From assembly GCA_023228765.1 (NCBI GenBank), contig JALOAM010000001.1:1-59641 (forward strand): DNA of 59,641 nucleotides. The letters run 5' to 3'. The notes under the pieces are model-generated. The model saw only the letters and a program-made list of their open reading frames with translations, searched no databases and was not told where the DNA came from. This document shows, one piece after another, positions 3,870 to 46,297 of the stretch. The position numbers and the translations under genes were made by a program. The stretch is from Dehalococcoidia bacterium. GTDB lineage: Bacteria; Chloroflexota; Dehalococcoidia; UBA2979. Position 1 is the first letter of the stretch; each line of letters begins with the position of its first letter.

Positions 3870-4010
3870 CACCGGGTGAGTAGCGCGCTGGGCTAGTCAC
3901 AGCCGAGCGAGCAGAGACTGAGACGATGACGAACACCCCCGCGAGTCGCACGACGGAAGCTGTACGCGTATGCGTCAGCGGTGTCGTCGTGCCCTCGCTG
4001 GGGGCAGTCC

Positions 4011-41048: not shown

Positions 41049-41846
41049 CTAGATCGCGGCGCGCGTGTCCGTGTCGGACGCGTCGAGGCCCACGAGGCCG
41101 CGCTTGATCGCGTAGCGGATCAGGTCCGTGCGGTTCTTGGCGTGGAGCTTCGTCATGATGTGGGCGCGGTGCGCCTCCACCGTCTTCACGGAGATCACCA
41201 GCTCGTCCGCGATCGCCTGGTTGGAGAGGCCCTCCGCGATGAGCTGGAGCACCTCCCGCTCGCGCGGGGTCAGCGTCTCGTAGCCCGTCTTGCCCTCCGG
41301 CTGCTTCGCCTGCATCAGCACGTCGTTGACGGAGATCTCCTCCGAGACCGAGGTGGAGAAGTAGGTGTTGCCGCGGCGGACGGACTGGATGGCGAGCAGA
41401 AGCTCCTCCATGTCCGAGTTCTTCACCACGTAGCCGGCGGCGCCGGCGCGCAGCGCCTGCAGCAGCCGTTCGTCCTCCAGGTATGCGGTCAGGATGAGGA
41501 CGCGCGTGCTGGGCGAGCGCTTCACGATCTGCCGCGTCGCCTCGATACCGTTGAGGCCCGGCATCACCATGTCCATCAGCACCACGTCCGGCATCAGCCG
41601 CTCCGCAGAGTCGACGGCGTCACGACCGTTGGTCGCCTCGCCCACCACTTCCAGGCCATCCTGCGCCTCCAGCAGCATCCGCAGCGCCTGCCGGAGGAGC
41701 GCGTGGTCGTCCGCGACCAGGATGCGGATGTGCGAGGAGCCGCGTACCGGCGGCCGCACTCGGGTAATCGGGGCGTTCAGACGGTCGTGCTGATTCACTT
41801 GGCTTCCCCCACCTACCCGCAGGTTACCCGACGAGTAACTGTCCAC
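41049..41846 (-). CDS. NarL/LuxR-family response regulator
   Basis: Receiver (ILVADDHALL...VVLMDMVMPGLNG...ILTAY) plus GerE HTH (LTPREREVLQLIAEGLSNQAIADELVISVKTVEAHRAHIMTKL). GTG at 41846 gives a roughly 40-aa leader; GTG at 41798 is an alternative start. Confidence 0.88.
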   Translation of the reverse strand: MDSYSSGNLRVGGGSQVNQHDRLNAPITRVRPPVRGSSHIRILVADDHALLRQALRMLLEAQDGLEVVGEATNGRDAVDSAERLMPDVVLMDMVMPGLNGIEATRQIVKRSPSTRVLILTAYLEDERLLQALRAGAAGYVVKNSDMEELLLAIQSVRRGNTYFSTSVSEEISVNDVLMQAKQPEGKTGYETLTPREREVLQLIAEGLSNQAIADELVISVKTVEAHRAHIMTKLHAKNRTDLIRYAIKRGLVGLDASDTDTRAAI

Positions 41847-41915: not shown

Positions 41916-42146
41916 TTATGACAAGTCGGCGTTATTCGGACTCGACTCCGCCCCGGACGGCGCGACGAGGTCGCGGTCGTCCTCGGAGCGGTCGACGCCC
42001 TCCACGCGAGCGGCAAAGACCCGCTCGCCGCCGCACCGCTTACAGCGGGCGGGGATAGCGCCCTCGGACGGATCGCCGAGCACCCAGTGGTGCACGCAAG
42101 CCGGGGCATCCTCGGTCACAACTTCGAGCTCGGTACGCCGACCCAT
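41916..42146 (-). CDS. small putative zinc-ribbon protein (76 aa), unknown function
   Basis: ATG at 42146 lies 8 nt after GAGGA. C-x-HH ... C-x2-C pattern (ACVHHW...ARCKRCGG) and an acidic tail. 70 nt upstream of the NarL-type regulator on the same strand. Confidence 0.45.
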   Translation of the reverse strand: MGRRTELEVVTEDAPACVHHWVLGDPSEGAIPARCKRCGGERVFAARVEGVDRSEDDRDLVAPSGAESSPNNADLS

Positions 42147-42452
42147 ATTCGGAATCCTCACTCCGCCCCGCTATGGGCAGTGAAGATCTGCGCTTCAGGG
42201 TGACACATGTCATCCCCGTTGCATGCATCCTATGGAGCCACTGCGTCAACCCTTATAGGGGGAACCCCTAAGGTTTTGGGCCTCGCCCCCCGATTCGCCC
42301 CTCCGCGGTGGGGCCGGGAGCGGTCCATCCATCAGGGAGTACGCGGACTCGTGCCCACGTACTCCCCGCGGCGCGGGCGGTCGACTCCGTGACGGGCCCG
42401 CGGCGAGTCTCTACGCGCGCGAGCCCCGAGGTCGCCCTCCGGTGGTTGGCCC

Positions 42453-42764
42453 TTAGAGGTTGTCCGGGGTGCCCTCGAAGCTGAACTCGTAGTGGGTCTC
42501 TTCCTCCACGAGGCGTCCGAGGTCGGAGCGCAGCGCCATCGAGTGCTCCGCCTGCGCGGCGTGCTCGGCTGCATCCACGGTCTCCCAGAAGCCGACCCGT
42601 CCCCAGCGACGGTCGTCCGACTCGGCGCCCTCGTACGGGTTGAGGATGTAGCCACCCTGGTAACCGTTCTGCTCCCGGTAGAACGCGGAGAGCTTCTGAA
42701 GCACTTCCTTCAGTCGCGCCTCCTGTCCCTCCTTCGGGTGCATGTAGGAGATCCGGACGAACAT
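42453..42764 (-). CDS. ABM/Dabb-fold (antibiotic-biosynthesis-monooxygenase-like) small protein
   Basis: 103 aa from the ATG at 42764 (AGGAGG RBS). The MFVRISYMHPKEGQEARLKEVL...VGFWETVDAAEHAAQ pattern fits the ferredoxin-like ABM fold. Assignment from recall. Confidence 0.55.
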   Translation of the reverse strand: MFVRISYMHPKEGQEARLKEVLQKLSAFYREQNGYQGGYILNPYEGAESDDRRWGRVGFWETVDAAEHAAQAEHSMALRSDLGRLVEEETHYEFSFEGTPDNL

Positions 42765-42950
42765 GGCAGCCTCCTGGATACGGCGACCGAAATCCTCGAC
42801 GGGTTCGAGAAGGCCGGACACCCTGATCATGCGTTGAGCGCGAGAATAGCCGCGATTTGGATCGAACGTGAAGGTGCTGCATGAGCTGGCGTCGAACGTG
42901 GCGATCCCCGCCGCTGGCGGCCCGCTCCCCTCTGCATGTCCCCGGACACG

Positions 42951-42983
42951 AGAAACGCGCCCCCGGCAGAGCCGGGCGCGCGT
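42951..42983 (-). terminator. intrinsic terminator of the zinc-ribbon gene
   Basis: On the minus strand, ACGCGCGCCCGGC-TCT-GCCGGGGGCGCGT (13-bp stem, 1 mismatch) is followed by TTTCT. It lies 24 nt after the stop codon. Confidence 0.65.
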
Positions 42984-43006
42984 TCATCGCGTTCTGGGAA
43001 CGAGTA

Positions 43007-43219
43007 TTAGAGGCGGAGCTTGCCGTGGGACGGCTGGCGGCGGCGCTGCTTGCCAGCGGCCAGACGCTCTTCCTCCTCGAGGTCCTTCGGGTCACAGCGC
43101 TGAGCCTCGTGGACGTAGCCACAGGCGACGCAGGTCCCGAACTGGCCGTACCAGTCGTCCTCGATAATCATCAGCCCACGACAGCGCGGGCACTTCTTTG
43201 GCGGCGCACTCACGATCAT
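43007..43219 (-). CDS. 70-aa zinc-ribbon protein (CPRC...CVACG) with acidic then basic tail
   Basis: AAGGAG RBS 6 nt before the ATG. Two CxxC knuckles 18 residues apart. C-terminal DPKDLEEEERLAAGKQRRRQPSHGKLRL. Sole gene downstream of the riboswitch. Confidence 0.65.
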   Translation of the reverse strand: MIVSAPPKKCPRCRGLMIIEDDWYGQFGTCVACGYVHEAQRCDPKDLEEEERLAAGKQRRRQPSHGKLRL

Positions 43220-43279
43220 GCCGCACTCCTTCTGGAATCGTCCGCATCCGGCTTCCCGCCGGTCGGGCTGATCCAGTCA

Positions 43280-43412
43280 GCCTCCGAGGTTAGCTGTCGG
43301 GTTCGGGCTGGTTCAGTATGCCCGTCCTTCTCATCCCGTGATGGGAAGGATTCACCCCAAGGTGTTGGGTCCCCCGGTCTCGATCGAGACTGCTCCCTTC
43401 GAGATTAGGCCG
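43280..43412 (-). promoter_or_regulatory. ydaO-yuaA class (c-di-AMP) riboswitch aptamer
   Basis: The minus-strand RNA reads GGCCUAAUC...GGGGGACCCA (43366-43375)...GGGGUGAAUCC (43348-43358)...CCCGAACCCGACAGCUAACCUCGGAGGC (43280-43307). These are the conserved blocks of the class in the correct order, closed by GCCU/AGGC pairing. No covariance-model scan could be run. Confidence 0.8.
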
Positions 43413-43456
43413 GTCACTCATCACAAGTGTGAATACCTCGTGCTTGTGACAACAAG

Positions 43457-43484
43457 AGCATAGGCGGGTAAAGGTGCTTGTCAA
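43457..43484 (-). promoter_or_regulatory. sigma-70-type promoter for the riboswitch-zinc-ribbon unit
   Basis: Minus strand: TTGACA (43479-43484), 16 nt, TATGCT (43457-43462), in a locally AT-richer stretch. The predicted TSS near 43450 gives a 5' UTR of about 230 nt. Confidence 0.5.
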
Positions 43485-43522
43485 CCCTTACGCGCCATGA
43501 TCTCAAGACAACATTTTGAAGA

Positions 43523-44305
43523 TCACACAAGAGTTTCTACATCGCGTTCGGAGCGTTTCGCTATCCAAACCATTTCAGGTGCGCCGTCCTGATACGGCTG
43601 GCCCTGAAACCCTCCCCAGAGCGACTCCACCTCGAACCTGCACCGCTCGAGGAGATGCTGCATCTCGTAGCGGTGGACGTAGCGTAGCCGGAAGGAGGTG
43701 CGCCGCCACTGGCCGTCCTCGTCGCGGACCCGGAGCGAGGTGGTCACCACCTGCTCCGTGGGGCGGTAGTCCTGGTGCGCCTGGTAGCCCTCCCACCCGA
43801 ACGGCTCCCAGTCCTCGGCACGGCGCCCCATCCACTTCGCCATCATCCGCAGGTCCGGGTTGAACACGTTCAGCGCGAGGCGTCCCCCCGGTCCGAGGGC
43901 ATCCCGGCACGCCCGCAACGTGGCGATCTGGTCCTCCGTCGTGAGGTTATGGAGAAACGTGCGGAACGGGATCGTCACCAGCGGCACGGGCGCGTCGAGG
44001 GTGAACGAGCGCATATCCCCGTCGCGGAGCGTGACCAGGTGGCTGACACCGGCAACCTCCGCCTTCTCGCGGGCGACCTCCAGCATCGCGGGCTCGCGGT
44101 CGAAGCCGAGGACAGGGACGCCTGCCTGCGCCGTGGGGACGGCGATGCGGCCCGTGCCGACGCCCAGCTCCACCACCGCGCCTGCCTCCCGCGCCAGCGC
44201 GACGTAGAACTCGACGTCGCCGGGCACGCCGCGCGAGTGCTCGTCGTACGCCCGGGCGTATTCGCGGTAATAAGGATCGTGTCCCTCGGACGGATACGTG
44301 CTCAC
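43523..44305 (-). CDS. class I SAM-dependent methyltransferase
   Basis: Motif I VVELGVGTGRIAVP and post-I/II motifs. GTG at 44305 behind GAGGAG is preferred over the ORF-track start at 44389, which would leave only 23 nt before cobT. Confidence 0.8.
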   Translation of the reverse strand: MSTYPSEGHDPYYREYARAYDEHSRGVPGDVEFYVALAREAGAVVELGVGTGRIAVPTAQAGVPVLGFDREPAMLEVAREKAEVAGVSHLVTLRDGDMRSFTLDAPVPLVTIPFRTFLHNLTTEDQIATLRACRDALGPGGRLALNVFNPDLRMMAKWMGRRAEDWEPFGWEGYQAHQDYRPTEQVVTTSLRVRDEDGQWRRTSFRLRYVHRYEMQHLLERCRFEVESLWGGFQGQPYQDGAPEMVWIAKRSERDVETLV

Positions 44306-44412: not shown

Positions 44413-45510
44413 ATGTCAGAGACGCCTCACGAGGACCTCATCGCGCGCACCGTCGCCGCGATCCAGCCGCCCGACGCCGCCGCGGCTGCTTCCGCCGCGG
44501 CGCGGCAGGACACGCTCACCAAGCCGCCGGGGTCACTCGGGCGGTTGGAGGACCTCGCGGTCCGCATCGCCGGGATCACGCGCACGCCGCGTCCAAGGCT
44601 GGAGCGGCGGCTGATCATCGTGGCGGCGGGTGACCATGGCGTCGCCACACGTGGTGTGTCCGCGTACCCGCAGGAGGTCACCGGCCAGATGGTCGCGAAC
44701 TTCCTCCACGGGGGCGCCGCCATCAGCGTGCTCGCCGCCCACGCCGGAGCGCGCGTGCGCGTCGTGGACGCCGGCGTGATCGCCGAGACGCCCGAGGTCC
44801 CCGCGCTGCTGCGACTCCGCCTCGGCGCCGGCACCGCGGACATCGCCGAGGGACCCGCGATGAGCCACGAGGCCGCGGCCGCCGCCGTCGCGGCCGGGAT
44901 CGCCCTCCTGCAGTCCGAGCGCGCCGAGGGAGGCGTCGACATCGTCGGGCTGGGCGAGATGGGGATCGGGAACAGCACCTCTGCCGCGGCGATCATCGCC
45001 GCCGTGACGGGACGCCCGCCACGGGCGGTCACCGGGCGCGGCACCGGCGTGGACGACGTGCGGTTCGAACAGAAGATCCGCGCCGTCGAGCAGGCGCTGG
45101 AGGTGAACCGCCCCGACTCGACCGACGGCCTCGATCTGCTCCGCACCGTCGGCGGGTACGAGGTCGGCGTGCTGGCCGGGGTGTACCTGGCGGCCGCCGC
45201 GGAGGGCATCCCCGCCGTGGTCGACGGACTCATCTCGGGCGCGGCCGCCCTCGTCGCCGTGGCCCTCGCACCACAGGCCCGCGATGCCCTGATCGCCTCG
45301 CACCGCTCGGCGGAACCGGGGCATTCGACGGCGCTGGAGCACCTGCGCCTGGAGCCGATGCTGGACCTCGGGATGCGGCTCGGGGAGGGCAGCGGTGCCG
45401 CCCTCGGCATCTCGCTCTGCGTCGCCGCCTGCCGGGTGCTGGACGAGATGGCGACGTTCGACGAGGCCGGCGTCTCTGACTCCGACGACGCGGTCGAGCC
45501 CGAGTCGTAG
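44413..45510 (+). CDS. cobT: nicotinate-nucleotide--dimethylbenzimidazole phosphoribosyltransferase
   Basis: LTKPPGSLGRLEDLAVRIAG, GDHGV, GEMGIGNST, GEGSGAAL are CobT hallmarks. 365 aa. Confidence 0.93.
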   Translation: MSETPHEDLIARTVAAIQPPDAAAAASAAARQDTLTKPPGSLGRLEDLAVRIAGITRTPRPRLERRLIIVAAGDHGVATRGVSAYPQEVTGQMVANFLHGGAAISVLAAHAGARVRVVDAGVIAETPEVPALLRLRLGAGTADIAEGPAMSHEAAAAAVAAGIALLQSERAEGGVDIVGLGEMGIGNSTSAAAIIAAVTGRPPRAVTGRGTGVDDVRFEQKIRAVEQALEVNRPDSTDGLDLLRTVGGYEVGVLAGVYLAAAAEGIPAVVDGLISGAAALVAVALAPQARDALIASHRSAEPGHSTALEHLRLEPMLDLGMRLGEGSGAALGISLCVAACRVLDEMATFDEAGVSDSDDAVEPES

Positions 45511-45511
45511 C

Positions 45512-46297
45512 GTGGGGGCCGTCCGCGTCCTGGGCGGCGCGCTGATCGCGGTCGAGTTCCTCACCCCGCTGCGCCTGCGCAAGGTGCAGACCTACGACGA
45601 CCGTACCTTCGCGGAAGCGCTGGGCTGGTACCCCTTCGCCGGGCTGCTCATCGGACTGATCCTCGCGCTCCTGGACCTCGGACTGCGCGAGTTGCTCCCA
45701 CCCGGCCCCACCGCCGCGCTCCTCGTCGCCACGCTCGCGCTGCTCTCGGGTGGGCTGCACCTCGATGGCGTCGCAGACACCGCGGACGGCCTCGCGGTGC
45801 AGGGCGACCGCGCCCGGCGGCTCGGCGTCATGAGCGAGGGCAACACGGGGCCGGCGGGCGTCATGGCGCTGGTGCTCGTGCTCCTCGCACAGTGGTCGTC
45901 GCTCGCCAGCCTGCCGGAGGATGCGCGCCTCGCGGCGCTGCTGATCGCCCCCGTCATCGCGCGGTGGACGGTGGTTCCGGTGGGGCTGCTCTTTCCTCCC
46001 GCACGCCCTCGAGGCCTGGGGCACGCGATCCACGCCGGCCTGTGGCCGCTCGCCGCGCCGCTCGCGACGCTGATCGCGGTGGTGGTCGCGACCGTGACGT
46101 TCGGCCTCGCGGGGCTCGTGCTCATCGCACTCGGCGGAGTCGCGGCCGTCCTCGTCGCAGCGGCGGCGGCGCGAATGCTGGAGGGCGTCACGGGCGACGT
46201 GTTCGGAGCCGCGATCGAGATCGCGCAGGTGGTCGTCTGGTTCGCGGTGATCGCCTCGGTCGGCCGCGGCTGGGCCGCACCCCTGCTGGGGACGTAG
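45512..46297 (+). CDS. cobS: adenosylcobinamide-GDP ribazoletransferase (cobalamin synthase)
   Basis: Polytopic membrane protein. ALIAVEFLTPLRL... and LHLDGVADTADGL motif. GTG start 2 nt after the cobT stop. Confidence 0.88.
   Translation: MGAVRVLGGALIAVEFLTPLRLRKVQTYDDRTFAEALGWYPFAGLLIGLILALLDLGLRELLPPGPTAALLVATLALLSGGLHLDGVADTADGLAVQGDRARRLGVMSEGNTGPAGVMALVLVLLAQWSSLASLPEDARLAALLIAPVIARWTVVPVGLLFPPARPRGLGHAIHAGLWPLAAPLATLIAVVVATVTFGLAGLVLIALGGVAAVLVAAAAARMLEGVTGDVFGAAIEIAQVVVWFAVIASVGRGWAAPLLGT

What the first reader, a model, noticed from the sequence alone, without database searches (positions are those of the whole stretch)
42951..43490. c-di-AMP (ydaO-class) riboswitch whose only cargo is a 70-aa zinc-ribbon protein
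On the minus strand there is a complete, self-contained unit.
- Promoter: TTGACA-16 nt-TATGCT (43457-43484).
- 5' UTR of about 230 nt, reading GCCUAAUC...GGGGGACCCA...GGGGUGAAUCC...CCCGAACCCGACAGCUAACCUCGGAGGC (43280-43412).
- AAGGAG RBS and a 70-aa ORF (43007-43219).
- A 13-bp GC hairpin plus T tract (42951-42983).

The three RNA blocks, their order and the GCCU/AGGC closing helix are the hallmark of the ydaO-yuaA c-di-AMP riboswitch as I know it from Bacillus and actinobacterial examples. The regulons I know of for this class are K+/osmolyte transporters and cell-wall hydrolases (for example rpfA). A tiny CPRC...CVACG zinc ribbon with an acidic-then-basic tail is not among them. It is therefore a candidate new c-di-AMP-controlled effector or regulator.
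Basis: partly seen in the sequence, partly recalled or inferred. Interest (0 to 1): 0.78.

Follow-up and report, generated by a model that had tools for sequence, protein, structure and literature searches.

The report
c-di-AMP riboswitch controlling a small zinc-ribbon protein
A textbook c-di-AMP-sensing riboswitch sits in front of a tiny, uncharacterised zinc-ribbon protein with an invariant tail, and the same pairing recurs across Chloroflexota genomes, so this protein is a likely new output of c-di-AMP signalling.

Summary
Window 43264-43421 (-) matches Rfam RF00379 (c-di-AMP/ydaO) at 81.9 bits against a gathering score of 38, over the full model, and it is the only Rfam hit in the window. 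The promoter (TTGACA-16-TATGCT), the AAGGAG RBS, the 70-aa ORF and a very stable post-ORF hairpin are all present; the T tract after that hairpin is weak.

The pairing is not a one-off. 407 species-level genomes, all labelled Chloroflexota/Dehalococcoidia in the 80 listed, encode the protein. All 80 retained loci carry the aptamer's 3' hallmark 57-99 nt upstream of the start codon. All 26 homolog loci scanned with Rfam (down to about 54% protein identity), plus the window, have the aptamer. 87 of 90 distinct loci have the promoter.

The protein is under strong purifying selection, and its C-terminal tail KQRRRQPSHGKLRL is essentially invariant. No curated family covers it. Patescibacteria-like relatives fuse the same module to a probable sigma-r4/LuxR-like HTH.

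Distant clades carry classic terminators after the aptamer, which implies an OFF switch. The window's clade lacks a U-tract, so its read-out is unresolved.

The protein's function is inferred only, most likely a partner of the transcription machinery or of nucleic acid. I found no literature on this pairing.

The parts
43479..43484 (-). -35 hexamer TTGACA
   Evidence: A TTGACA-16/17-TAnnnT promoter lies upstream of the aptamer in 87 of 90 distinct homologous loci, against 3 of 90 in a control region of the same size.
43457..43462 (-). -10 hexamer TATGCT; the inferred TSS is near 43450
   Evidence: The TSS is inferred, not measured.
43264..43421 (-). c-di-AMP riboswitch aptamer (RF00379); the closing helix P1 spans about 43411 to 43280
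   Evidence: 81.9 bits against gathering 38, full-length model. RNAalifold on 35 homologous leaders recovers the nested helices, and 13 of 27 pairs show compensatory changes.
43248..43262 (-). Conserved platform hairpin CCGGC-GGGAA-GCCGG, with no U-tract
   Evidence: 90% of cells paired against 14-50% in slid controls; 10 sequences have a double change at the fifth pair; 0 of 500 shuffles reach the covariation score. It occupies the position of the terminator hairpin seen in distant clades.
43226..43231 (-). Shine-Dalgarno AAGGAG, 6 nt before the ATG
   Evidence: SD-like motifs are found at this position in nearly all homologous loci.
43007..43219 (-). 70-aa ORF: zinc ribbon (C10, C13, C30, C33), acidic helix (residues 44-54), basic tail
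   Evidence: Purifying selection: differences by codon position are 27483 / 17835 / 89055.
43010..43051 (-). Codons 57-70, the near-invariant tail KQRRRQPSHGKLRL
   Evidence: residues 59 and 62-70 are invariant and 58, 60 and 61 are at least 90% conserved; position 57 varies between K and R; 18060 synonymous against 243 non-synonymous codon differences. The stop codon is TAA here and is never TGA in 97 loci.
42946..42992 (-). Post-ORF GC-rich hairpin, a probable terminator with a weak U-tract (UUUCU)
   Evidence: -37.1 kcal/mol, z = -6.1. The scanner did not call it. Stable hairpins follow the stop codon in most homologous loci, but only 9 of 88 have a U-rich tail.
42453..42764 (-). Downstream ABM-family gene. 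This is a neighbour and a possible read-through cargo, not shown to belong to the unit.
   Evidence: Pfam ABM is sub-threshold. It has its own AGGAGG RBS. It lies on the same strand downstream in 36 of 91 loci, 64-782 nt away.

Best explanation
This is a self-contained unit made of a sigma-70-type promoter, a canonical c-di-AMP (ydaO-class) aptamer and a 70-aa zinc-ribbon protein. The unit is conserved across Chloroflexota (class Dehalococcoidia in the record titles).

The riboswitch most likely acts as an OFF switch, so the protein is made when c-di-AMP is low. In the more distant clades the read-out is an intrinsic terminator immediately after the aptamer. In the window's clade the U-tract has been lost and a conserved hairpin remains. 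There the read-out is unresolved: U-tract-independent termination, Rho-dependent termination or translational control are all possible.

The product is a small trans-acting factor. A folded C4 zinc ribbon is followed by an acidic helix and an invariant basic C-terminal peptide (RRRQPSHGKLRL). That peptide most likely docks onto a highly conserved partner. My best guess for the partner is the transcription machinery or nucleic acid. Two things point that way: the ribbon is most like the TFIIB/Rpb9 ribbons, and relatives in Patescibacteria-like genomes fuse the same ribbon-plus-tail module to a probable sigma-region-4/LuxR-type HTH.

Shown here: the aptamer's identity, the conservation of the promoter-aptamer-ORF arrangement, protein-level selection, and the terminators in sister clades.

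Inferred: ligand binding, OFF polarity in the window, a monocistronic transcript, and the protein's partner (about 0.3 for transcription-related).
For: Aptamer: 81.9 bits; helices recovered, 13 of 27 pairs with compensatory changes.

Association: 407 genomes encode a relative; 80 of 80 loci have the 3' hallmark 57-99 nt upstream of the start; 26 of 26 homolog loci with RF00379 at 50-104 bits, down to about 54% protein identity; promoter in 87 of 90 loci against 3 of 90 in the control.

OFF logic: (L082, L085, L087 and L088 have hairpins of -20 to -36 kcal/mol followed by U6, z = -4.4 to -5.6, directly after the aptamer; in L082 the 3' arm repeats the GGAGGC of the closing helix).

Real protein: 91 clusters, invariant tail; tail: 18060 synonymous against 243 non-synonymous differences; AF2 three-stranded ribbon, block mean pLDDT 83-91.

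Function hints: best sub-threshold matches are the TFIIB, Rpb9 and TFS ribbons; the sequences retrieved include about 22 architectures with an N-terminal domain, a linker, the ribbon and the tail; the N-terminal profile hits sigma-H region 4 at E 0.0047, followed by many LuxR, DevR and sigma-r4 chains.

Stand-alone unit: stable hairpin after the stop; in L085 a classic terminator follows the ORF 22 nt after the stop.
Against: No ligand-binding or expression data exist.

The window's platform is not significantly structured (z = -1.18) and has no U-tract. SD-accessibility modelling gives no bound-versus-free difference for the window (0.36 against 0.38). Across loci the trend is the opposite of SD sequestration (0.50 against 0.39).

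All zinc-ribbon family matches are below curated cut-offs. Fold searches give nothing better than E 0.04.

The HTH assignment for the fusion partners is weak.

The tail is predicted disordered (mean pLDDT 59), so nothing structural supports any particular partner.

An ABM gene recurs downstream (36 of 91 loci) and might be co-transcribed.

One divergent homolog (L081) has no aptamer.
Confidence: 0.65

Rival explanations
1. The riboswitch controls an operon. The small ORF is co-transcribed with the downstream ABM-family gene, and possibly with orf81 and the LuxR-type regulator, so the zinc-ribbon protein is not the only cargo.
For: The ABM homolog lies on the same strand downstream in 36 of 91 loci, as close as 64-87 nt in L035, L022, L019, L031 and L082. 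It is also present in the distant L082, L087 and L096. The window's post-ORF hairpin has a poor U-tract and was not called as a terminator.
Against: 55 of 91 loci have no ABM gene downstream, while the riboswitch-ORF pair is universal. In L092 the ABM gene is upstream instead. In the window a -37 kcal/mol hairpin and a 243-nt gap separate the two genes, and the ABM gene has its own RBS. L085 has a classic terminator right after the ORF. L082 has a promoter-like site between the two genes.
Confidence: 0.2
2. The small protein is a ribosome- or translation-associated factor, and the basic tail inserts into an rRNA site or the mRNA channel. It is not a transcription factor.
For: An invariant basic tail implies a universally conserved partner. 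Zinc-ribbon ribosomal proteins appear among the weak fold hits (archaeal 70S chains). TGA is never used as the stop codon.
Against: No sequence or profile similarity to any ribosomal protein family. The recurrent fusion to an HTH-like domain fits transcription or DNA better.
Confidence: 0.12
3. The protein is a feedback or effector component of c-di-AMP or potassium homeostasis. It would bind a cyclase, a phosphodiesterase or a K+/osmolyte transporter, so that low c-di-AMP induces a corrector.
For: The known regulon logic of this riboswitch class covers K+ and osmolyte uptake and cell-wall remodelling (review PMC7266159). Induction at low c-di-AMP suits a homeostatic corrector.
Against: No transporter, cyclase or phosphodiesterase gene is linked to it in any of the loci examined. 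Fusion relatives occur in Patescibacteria-like genomes without the riboswitch.
Confidence: 0.1
4. The ORF acts in cis as a regulatory nascent peptide. The invariant C-terminal peptide would arrest the ribosome at the stop codon. Folding of the zinc ribbon about 31 residues upstream, roughly the length of the exit tunnel, would relieve the arrest and so tune the downstream hairpin or gene.
For: Amino-acid invariance ends exactly at the stop codon while synonymous sites vary freely. The stop is never TGA in 97 loci. The ribbon-to-C-terminus spacing is about 31 residues.
Against: The downstream gene is not conserved. The same ribbon-plus-tail module ends proteins of 190-740 aa in other lineages. 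The N-terminal ribbon is also strongly conserved as a protein. The TGA avoidance is shared in part by neighbouring small genes and is not phylogenetically independent.
Confidence: 0.05

Closest known systems
c-di-AMP riboswitch (ydaO-yuaA motif, Rfam RF00379), e.g. the Bacillus subtilis ydaO/kimA and ktrAB leaders and the actinobacterial rpfA leader
   Same: The aptamer sequence and nested-helix architecture match over the full model, well above threshold, and the helices covary. It sits in a 5' UTR downstream of its own promoter. Sister clades use a terminator directly after the aptamer, the usual OFF arrangement.
   Different: The cargo is not a K+/osmolyte or amino-acid transporter, nor a cell-wall enzyme, which are the classes listed for this riboswitch in PMC7266159. 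It is a 70-aa soluble zinc-ribbon protein with no curated family. In the window's clade the platform has no U-tract.
TFIIB / TFB N-terminal zinc ribbon, with the Rpb9 / TFS / RPC10 ribbons (Pfam PF08271, PF02150)
   Same: A CxxC...CxxC three-stranded ribbon of similar length. These are the best sequence matches (PF08271 at 22.7 bits; PDB 1pft at E 0.098) and appear among the best fold matches.
   Different: All scores are below curated thresholds. The organism is bacterial. The protein has no cyclin-fold or TFIIS-like domain. It carries a family-specific acidic helix and an invariant basic tail that those families lack.
ZifS (TTHA0897), small zinc-finger protein of Thermus thermophilus (PDB 8yoz)
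   Same: A small (77-79 aa) stand-alone bacterial zinc-binding protein, and the top Foldseek hit.
   Different: E 0.07, TM 0.37 and rmsd 5.7 A are not significant. There is no sequence-level match. I found no paper on it in the library, so there is no function to transfer.
Small RNAP-binding zinc proteins of bacteria, such as actinobacterial RbpA and DksA/TraR (from my own knowledge, not tested here)
   Same: Small size, a zinc-binding core and a charged extension that does the work. This is an analogy for how the protein might act.
   Different: No detectable homology to either family in the Pfam, NCBIfam or PDB searches. The domain order and the tail motif are unrelated.

Membership tests
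c-di-AMP riboswitch aptamer (Rfam RF00379, ydaO-yuaA) | Covariance-model score at or above the curated gathering score, over the whole model | tested here: met
   81.9 bits against 38, E 1.5e-17, model positions 1-134 of 134, not truncated.
c-di-AMP riboswitch aptamer (Rfam RF00379, ydaO-yuaA) | Nested long-range helices (the closing helix, the CGGGG/CCYCG helix, the GGGU/ACCC helix) and internal hairpins, maintained by compensatory change | tested here: met
   RNAalifold on 35 homologous Chloroflexota leaders recovers these helices de novo. 13 of 27 pairs have double changes that keep pairing.
c-di-AMP riboswitch aptamer (Rfam RF00379, ydaO-yuaA) | Cis-regulatory position: 5' UTR, same strand, between a promoter and an ORF | tested here: met
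   The promoter lies 36 nt upstream of the model start. The ATG is 44 nt downstream of the model end. The arrangement is conserved in 87 of 90 loci.
c-di-AMP riboswitch aptamer (Rfam RF00379, ydaO-yuaA) | Binds c-di-AMP (two ligands per RNA, sub-nanomolar in published examples) | not testable with these tools
   This needs in-line probing or ITC of the 43264-43421 transcript.
c-di-AMP riboswitch, complete OFF switch (aptamer plus expression platform) | An intrinsic terminator or SD-sequestering helix that competes with the 3' strand of the aptamer | tested here: not met
   Window: no U-tract, platform z = -1.18, and SD accessibility 0.36 against 0.38. The feature is met in the sister clades L082, L085, L087 and L088 (hairpin plus U6). 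It is not part of the Rfam aptamer definition, so aptamer membership stands. Only the read-out in this clade is open.
Known cargo classes of the c-di-AMP riboswitch (K+/osmolyte/amino-acid transporters, cell-wall remodelling enzymes) | The downstream gene encodes a transporter or a cell-wall hydrolase or lytic enzyme | tested here: not met
   The product is a 70-aa soluble protein with only sub-threshold zinc-ribbon hits in Pfam and NCBIfam. The cargo classes are as listed in PMC7266159.
Zinc ribbon, TFIIB type (Pfam PF08271 Zn_Ribbon_TF) | Two CxxC knuckles about 15-20 residues apart, conserved across the family | tested here: met
   C10, C13, C30 and C33 are at least 90% conserved in 28 sequences.
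Zinc ribbon, TFIIB type (Pfam PF08271 Zn_Ribbon_TF) | Profile score at or above Pfam's gathering score | tested here: not met
   22.7 bits against 29. The PDB profile search gives 1pft (TFIIB) as best hit at E 0.098. It is filed as 'zinc ribbon, TFIIB-like', not as a member of the family.
Zinc ribbon, TFIIB type (Pfam PF08271 Zn_Ribbon_TF) | Three-stranded antiparallel ribbon fold | tested here: met
   The AF2 model has strands at 16-22, 25-30 and 36-38, with 10-residue block mean pLDDT of 83-91. Foldseek hits are ribbons (RPC10, Rpb9, TFIIB, the Topo I C-terminal domain), but none is significant.
Sigma-70 region 4 / LuxR (GerE) HTH, for the N-terminal domain of the fusion relatives | Significant profile match to region-4 or GerE HTH domains | tested here: inconclusive
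   PDB profile search: sigma-H at E 0.0047, then about 13 further sigma-r4, LuxR or DevR chains at E 0.1-1. Pfam: 3 member hits out of 19 members scanned, all sub-threshold. hhalign against a LuxR HTH alignment: correct register, P 0.004, probability 8.5%.
Cis-acting leader or arrest peptide | A conserved regulated gene immediately downstream of the short ORF | tested here: not met
   The downstream gene varies between loci: ABM in 36 of 91, and others elsewhere.

The most novel reading that the evidence does not exclude
The 70-aa protein is a bacterial counterpart of the TFIIB/TFS-type ribbon. It would dock onto RNA polymerase through its invariant C-terminal peptide and be made only when c-di-AMP falls. 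Chloroflexota would then convert a second-messenger signal into a global change in transcription through a riboswitch-to-RNAP-modulator cascade. Patescibacteria would use the same docking module fused to an HTH as a recruiting activator.
Probability: 0.15. Interest if true: 0.85.

Novelty: new variant of a known kind. Interest (0 to 1): 0.62.

Why it matters
Genes under c-di-AMP riboswitches have been the main guide to what this essential second messenger controls. So far that means ion and osmolyte transport and cell-wall remodelling.

This case is a near-obligate pairing across a class of Chloroflexota. In every stand-alone homolog locus tested except one divergent low-GC contig of unknown origin (L081), the riboswitch has its own conserved promoter and drives a tiny soluble protein that looks like a regulator, not a transporter or an enzyme. 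That points to an unexplored output branch of c-di-AMP signalling in a large, mostly uncultured and environmentally important lineage.

It also gives a precise experimental handle. A 14-residue invariant tail is an obvious bait for finding the partner.

The family further shows one aptamer coupled to different read-outs in sister clades: classic terminators in some, and a U-tract-less hairpin in others.

Tried and rejected
(1) The terminator scan found nothing in 42300-43700. It also missed the riboswitch terminators of L082, L087 and L088 because their stems are interrupted. Explicit folding was needed instead.

(2) I tested SD sequestration as the read-out in the window's clade. I compared SD accessibility with the aptamer's 3' strands locked away or free in 77 leaders. 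There was no support: the window gave 0.36 against 0.38, and the overall trend ran the wrong way. This is a crude equilibrium model, so the result is inconclusive and not a refutation.

(3) RNAalifold on the platform found only the central hairpin. An outer helix (CUGGAUC/GAUUCCAG) seen by eye in the window is not consistently alignable across loci, so I dropped it.

(4) Pfam, NCBIfam and PHROGs gave no family for the protein. PADLOC was not tried.

(5) Foldseek against PDB and against viral models gave only generic ribbons, with E at least 0.04.

(6) I tried to firm up the HTH assignment of the fusion partners. A deep word-indexed search with the domain alignment returned nothing. A Pfam scan of its members was weak. 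hhalign was weak.

(7) Other architectures in the wider family (P0144, P0100, P0137 and others) look like frameshifted or over-extended calls and gave no domains. P0102 is a repeat artefact. P0089 is probably a chimeric contig.

(8) Literature: eight searches found nothing linking this riboswitch to zinc-ribbon proteins or to Chloroflexota, and nothing on ZifS/TTHA0897. The two primary papers on the motif's gene associations (PMC3830699, PMC2916388) are not held. I therefore cannot exclude that their supplementary lists already contain a 'hypothetical protein' of this family.

(9) From memory only, and untested: the tail (RRRQPSHGKLRL) loosely recalls the N-terminus of ribosomal protein bL34 and MuA-type ClpX C-terminal degrons. 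No profile hit supports either idea.
Full report
**1. What is in the window**

On the minus strand, Rfam's c-di-AMP model (RF00379) matches 43264-43421 at 81.9 bits. The gathering score is 38, E is 1.5e-17, and the match covers model positions 1-134 without truncation. It is the only family above threshold in the 59.6-kb window.

A sigma-70-type promoter, TTGACA-16-TATGCT, lies at 43484..43457. One site was found against 0.1 expected in shuffles.

AAGGAG (43226-43231) precedes the ATG at 43219 by 6 nt. The ORF 43007-43219 encodes 70 aa.

After the stop codon there is a -37.1 kcal/mol hairpin (z = -6.1). Its tail is only UUUCU, and the terminator scan did not call it. The window is 69.5% G+C. 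Its closest relatives among the fetched loci are Dehalococcoidia MAGs at about 75-81% nucleotide identity.

**2. Is the aptamer a true family member?**

Yes, on every test available here. I took 35 homologous leaders from other genomes and gave them to RNAalifold with no structural prior. It recovers the closing helix, the CGGGG/CCYCG and GGGU/ACCC long-range helices and the internal hairpins. 13 of 27 predicted pairs keep pairing through changes on both sides. Ligand binding cannot be tested with these tools.

**3. Is the small ORF a real gene, and is the pairing recurrent?**

The protein has 91 clusters of homologs at 50-100% identity, nearly all 66-72 aa. The named ones come from Chloroflexi/Dehalococcoidia metagenome bins.

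A scan of one genome per species found 407 genomes encoding a relative. The 80 best, at 74% identity or more, were kept. Nearly all are labelled Chloroflexota or Dehalococcoidia, and none names another phylum.

All 80 carry the aptamer's 3' hallmark (CCCGAACCCGNCAGCTAACC, at most 2 mismatches) 57-99 nt upstream of the start codon. Rfam confirmed the aptamer in all 18 of those I scanned, at 50-90 bits.

I then fetched more distant homologs, at about 54-61% identity. L082 (bacterium HR24), L085, L087, L088, L092, L094, L096 and L097 all have the aptamer directly upstream on the same strand, at 68-104 bits. That makes 26 of 26 homolog loci scanned, plus the window.

There were two non-confirmations. 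L084 has its contig end 107 nt upstream of the gene and cannot be tested. L081 is the most divergent homolog (about 50% identity). It sits on a low-GC contig with a tandem paralog and has no aptamer even at E 0.1 or below.

A TTGACA-16/17-TAnnnT promoter lies upstream of the aptamer in 87 of 90 distinct loci. A control region of the same size has one in 3 of 90.

Selection acts at the protein level. Differences by codon position are 27483, 17835 and 89055. In the last 14 codons there are 18060 synonymous codon differences against 243 non-synonymous.

**4. The protein**

The alignment shows three parts:
- a CPRC...C..CG zinc ribbon;
- a variable, acidic segment;
- a C-terminal tail, (K/R)QRRRQPSHGKLRL.

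The last nine residues, QPSHGKLRL, are invariant in all 28 aligned sequences. AlphaFold2 (mean pLDDT 76.6) gives a three-stranded ribbon (16-38), a helix (44-54) and an unstructured tail.

No curated family covers it. Pfam's best hit is the TFIIB zinc ribbon at 22.7 bits, below the cut-off of 29. Next come Rpb9 and Lar. NCBIfam gives archaeal TFS and Spt4 far below threshold. PHROGs gives nothing useful.

A PDB profile search gives the TFIIB ribbon (1pft) as best hit at E 0.098. Foldseek finds only generic ribbons (ZifS/8yoz, the Topo I C-terminal domain in RNAP complexes, RPC10, Rpb9, TFIIB). None is better than E 0.07 in PDB or 0.04 in the viral set.

**5. A functional hint from domain fusions**

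An exhaustive profile search found 1126 representatives at E 1e-3 or below, and 82 at 1e-10 or below. Among the sequences I retrieved, about 22 are proteins of roughly 180-740 aa that end in the same ribbon-plus-tail module. In most of them the N-terminal part begins with a shared domain whose motif is NPWxL..E.T.L.L...G.S..E.A..L.

Two of them (L089/L090 and L091) sit in ordinary chromosomal contexts with RuvC, YebC and YidC neighbours. Their DUF5656 and DUF5674 neighbours make me read the contigs as Patescibacteria-like, although one source labels P0151 as archaeal. Neither locus has a c-di-AMP aptamer.

A profile of the N-terminal domain hits sigma-H region 4 (E 0.0047), followed by many LuxR, DevR and sigma-D/E region-4 chains at E 0.1-1. 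Pfam gives 3 sub-threshold region-4 hits among the 19 members scanned. hhalign against a LuxR HTH alignment finds the right register with weak statistics.

I read this as suggestive, not established. The ribbon-plus-tail module keeps company with a DNA-binding HTH, which favours a role at the transcription machinery or on nucleic acid.

**6. How the switch is read out**

In L082, L085, L087 and L088 the aptamer is followed at once by a strong hairpin and a U6 tract (-20 to -36 kcal/mol, z = -4.4 to -5.6). In L082 the 3' arm of that hairpin repeats the GGAGGC of the aptamer's closing helix. This is the classic arrangement for ligand-induced termination.

From my own knowledge, all characterised members of this class are OFF switches. 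I therefore infer that the protein is made when c-di-AMP is low.

The window's clade keeps a hairpin at the same position (43248-43262). It is 90% paired across 39 sequences, against 14-50% in slid controls. Ten sequences have a double change at its fifth pair. There is no U-tract, and the platform as a whole is not unusually stable (z = -1.18).

A simple equilibrium model of SD accessibility does not support SD sequestration. U-tract-independent termination, Rho-dependent termination and translational control all remain open. This is the main mechanistic gap.

**7. Is the protein the only cargo?**

Probably. Stable hairpins follow the stop codon in most loci, and L085 has a textbook terminator there. 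The downstream gene also varies between loci.

The neighbourhood seen in the window is MTase, riboswitch, ORF, ABM, orf81 and a LuxR-type regulator, with a divergent CobT. It is only partly conserved: ABM in 36 of 91 loci, orf81 in 33, MTase in 31 and CobT in 48. Where the ABM gene is present it is sometimes only 64-87 nt away. Co-transcription in some genomes, and some read-through in the window, cannot be excluded.

**8. Comparison with what is known, and novelty**

The RNA is an ordinary member of RF00379. The unusual part is what it controls. [quoted passage not shown]

I found nothing in the searchable library that links this riboswitch to zinc-ribbon proteins or to Chloroflexota. The two primary surveys of gene associations are not held. 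Prior listing as a 'hypothetical protein' therefore cannot be excluded.

I rate it a new variant of a known kind. It is a canonical sensor with a new, lineage-wide and apparently dedicated output, a putative small regulator. Within the family the expression platform also differs between clades.

**9. Verdict**

| Claim | Confidence |
|---|---|
| This is a c-di-AMP riboswitch | about 0.95 |
| The 70-aa protein is its conserved primary cargo | about 0.85 |
| OFF polarity | about 0.75 |
| The partner is transcription-related | about 0.3 |

Interest is 0.62. The result is solid and testable, and it would expand the c-di-AMP regulon into regulation by a small protein. The protein's function is still only inferred.

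Noticed in passing
window 43007-43009, and the homologous stop codons in L001-L097: The stop codon of this gene family is TAG (67) or TAA (30) and never TGA in 97 loci. Neighbouring genes in the same loci use TGA in 53 of 182 cases (Fisher p = 8e-12). The counts are not phylogenetically independent, and the ABM (2 of 37) and orf81 (4 of 33) genes are also TGA-poor. The pattern may reflect selection for an exact C-terminus.
   Followed up: partly
L001-L097, neighbour genes of the small ORF: TAG is the commonest stop codon overall in these Dehalococcoidia loci (97 of 182 neighbour genes). This is unusual for bacteria, where TAG is normally the rarest stop.
   Followed up: no
window 41916-42161 (-): An 81-aa ORF with a C-x-H-H-W ... 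C-x-R-C-G pattern, possibly another small zinc-binding protein. It is conserved in 33 of 91 loci, usually between the ABM gene and a LuxR-type response regulator (41049-41846). It has no Pfam, NCBIfam or PHROG family. By eye, a TTGACG-17-TAGGAT promoter-like site lies upstream near 42250.
   Followed up: partly
L011, L041, L045, L051, L060, L069 (e.g. L060 3531-3682, minus strand): Cobalamin riboswitches (RF00174, 37-47 bits) lie on the opposite strand upstream of the c-di-AMP unit in 6 of 18 related loci. They presumably serve the divergent CobT/cobalamin genes. The window has CobT and CobS at 44413-46297 but no cobalamin riboswitch above gathering.
   Followed up: no
L081 2774-3207: A low-GC contig carries two tandem paralogs of the zinc-ribbon protein. 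The first lacks the QPSHGKLRL tail. There is no c-di-AMP aptamer. A Fic-domain gene lies upstream and an ATP-dependent DNA ligase downstream.
   Followed up: partly
L089 6001-6717; L091 4544-5113; proteins P0103-P0172: The ribbon-plus-tail module is fused to an N-terminal 'NPWxL' probable HTH domain, sometimes repeated three or four times (P0141, P0148), in Patescibacteria-like genomes. These loci have no riboswitch.
   Followed up: partly
window 43412-43450 (-): Between the inferred TSS and the aptamer, the leader is predicted to form a hairpin (GUCACAAGCACGAGG...CACUUGUGAUGAGUGAC) in the minimum-free-energy fold of the whole leader. I did not check whether it is conserved.
   Followed up: no
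L057, L062, L065, L066, L068 (platform region just upstream of position 4001): One subclade has a longer platform (98-99 nt) with a CCUCC...GGAGG hairpin and a second hairpin abutting a GAGGAGG Shine-Dalgarno. This looks like an anti-SD / anti-anti-SD arrangement, and so perhaps a third type of read-out in the same family.
   Followed up: no
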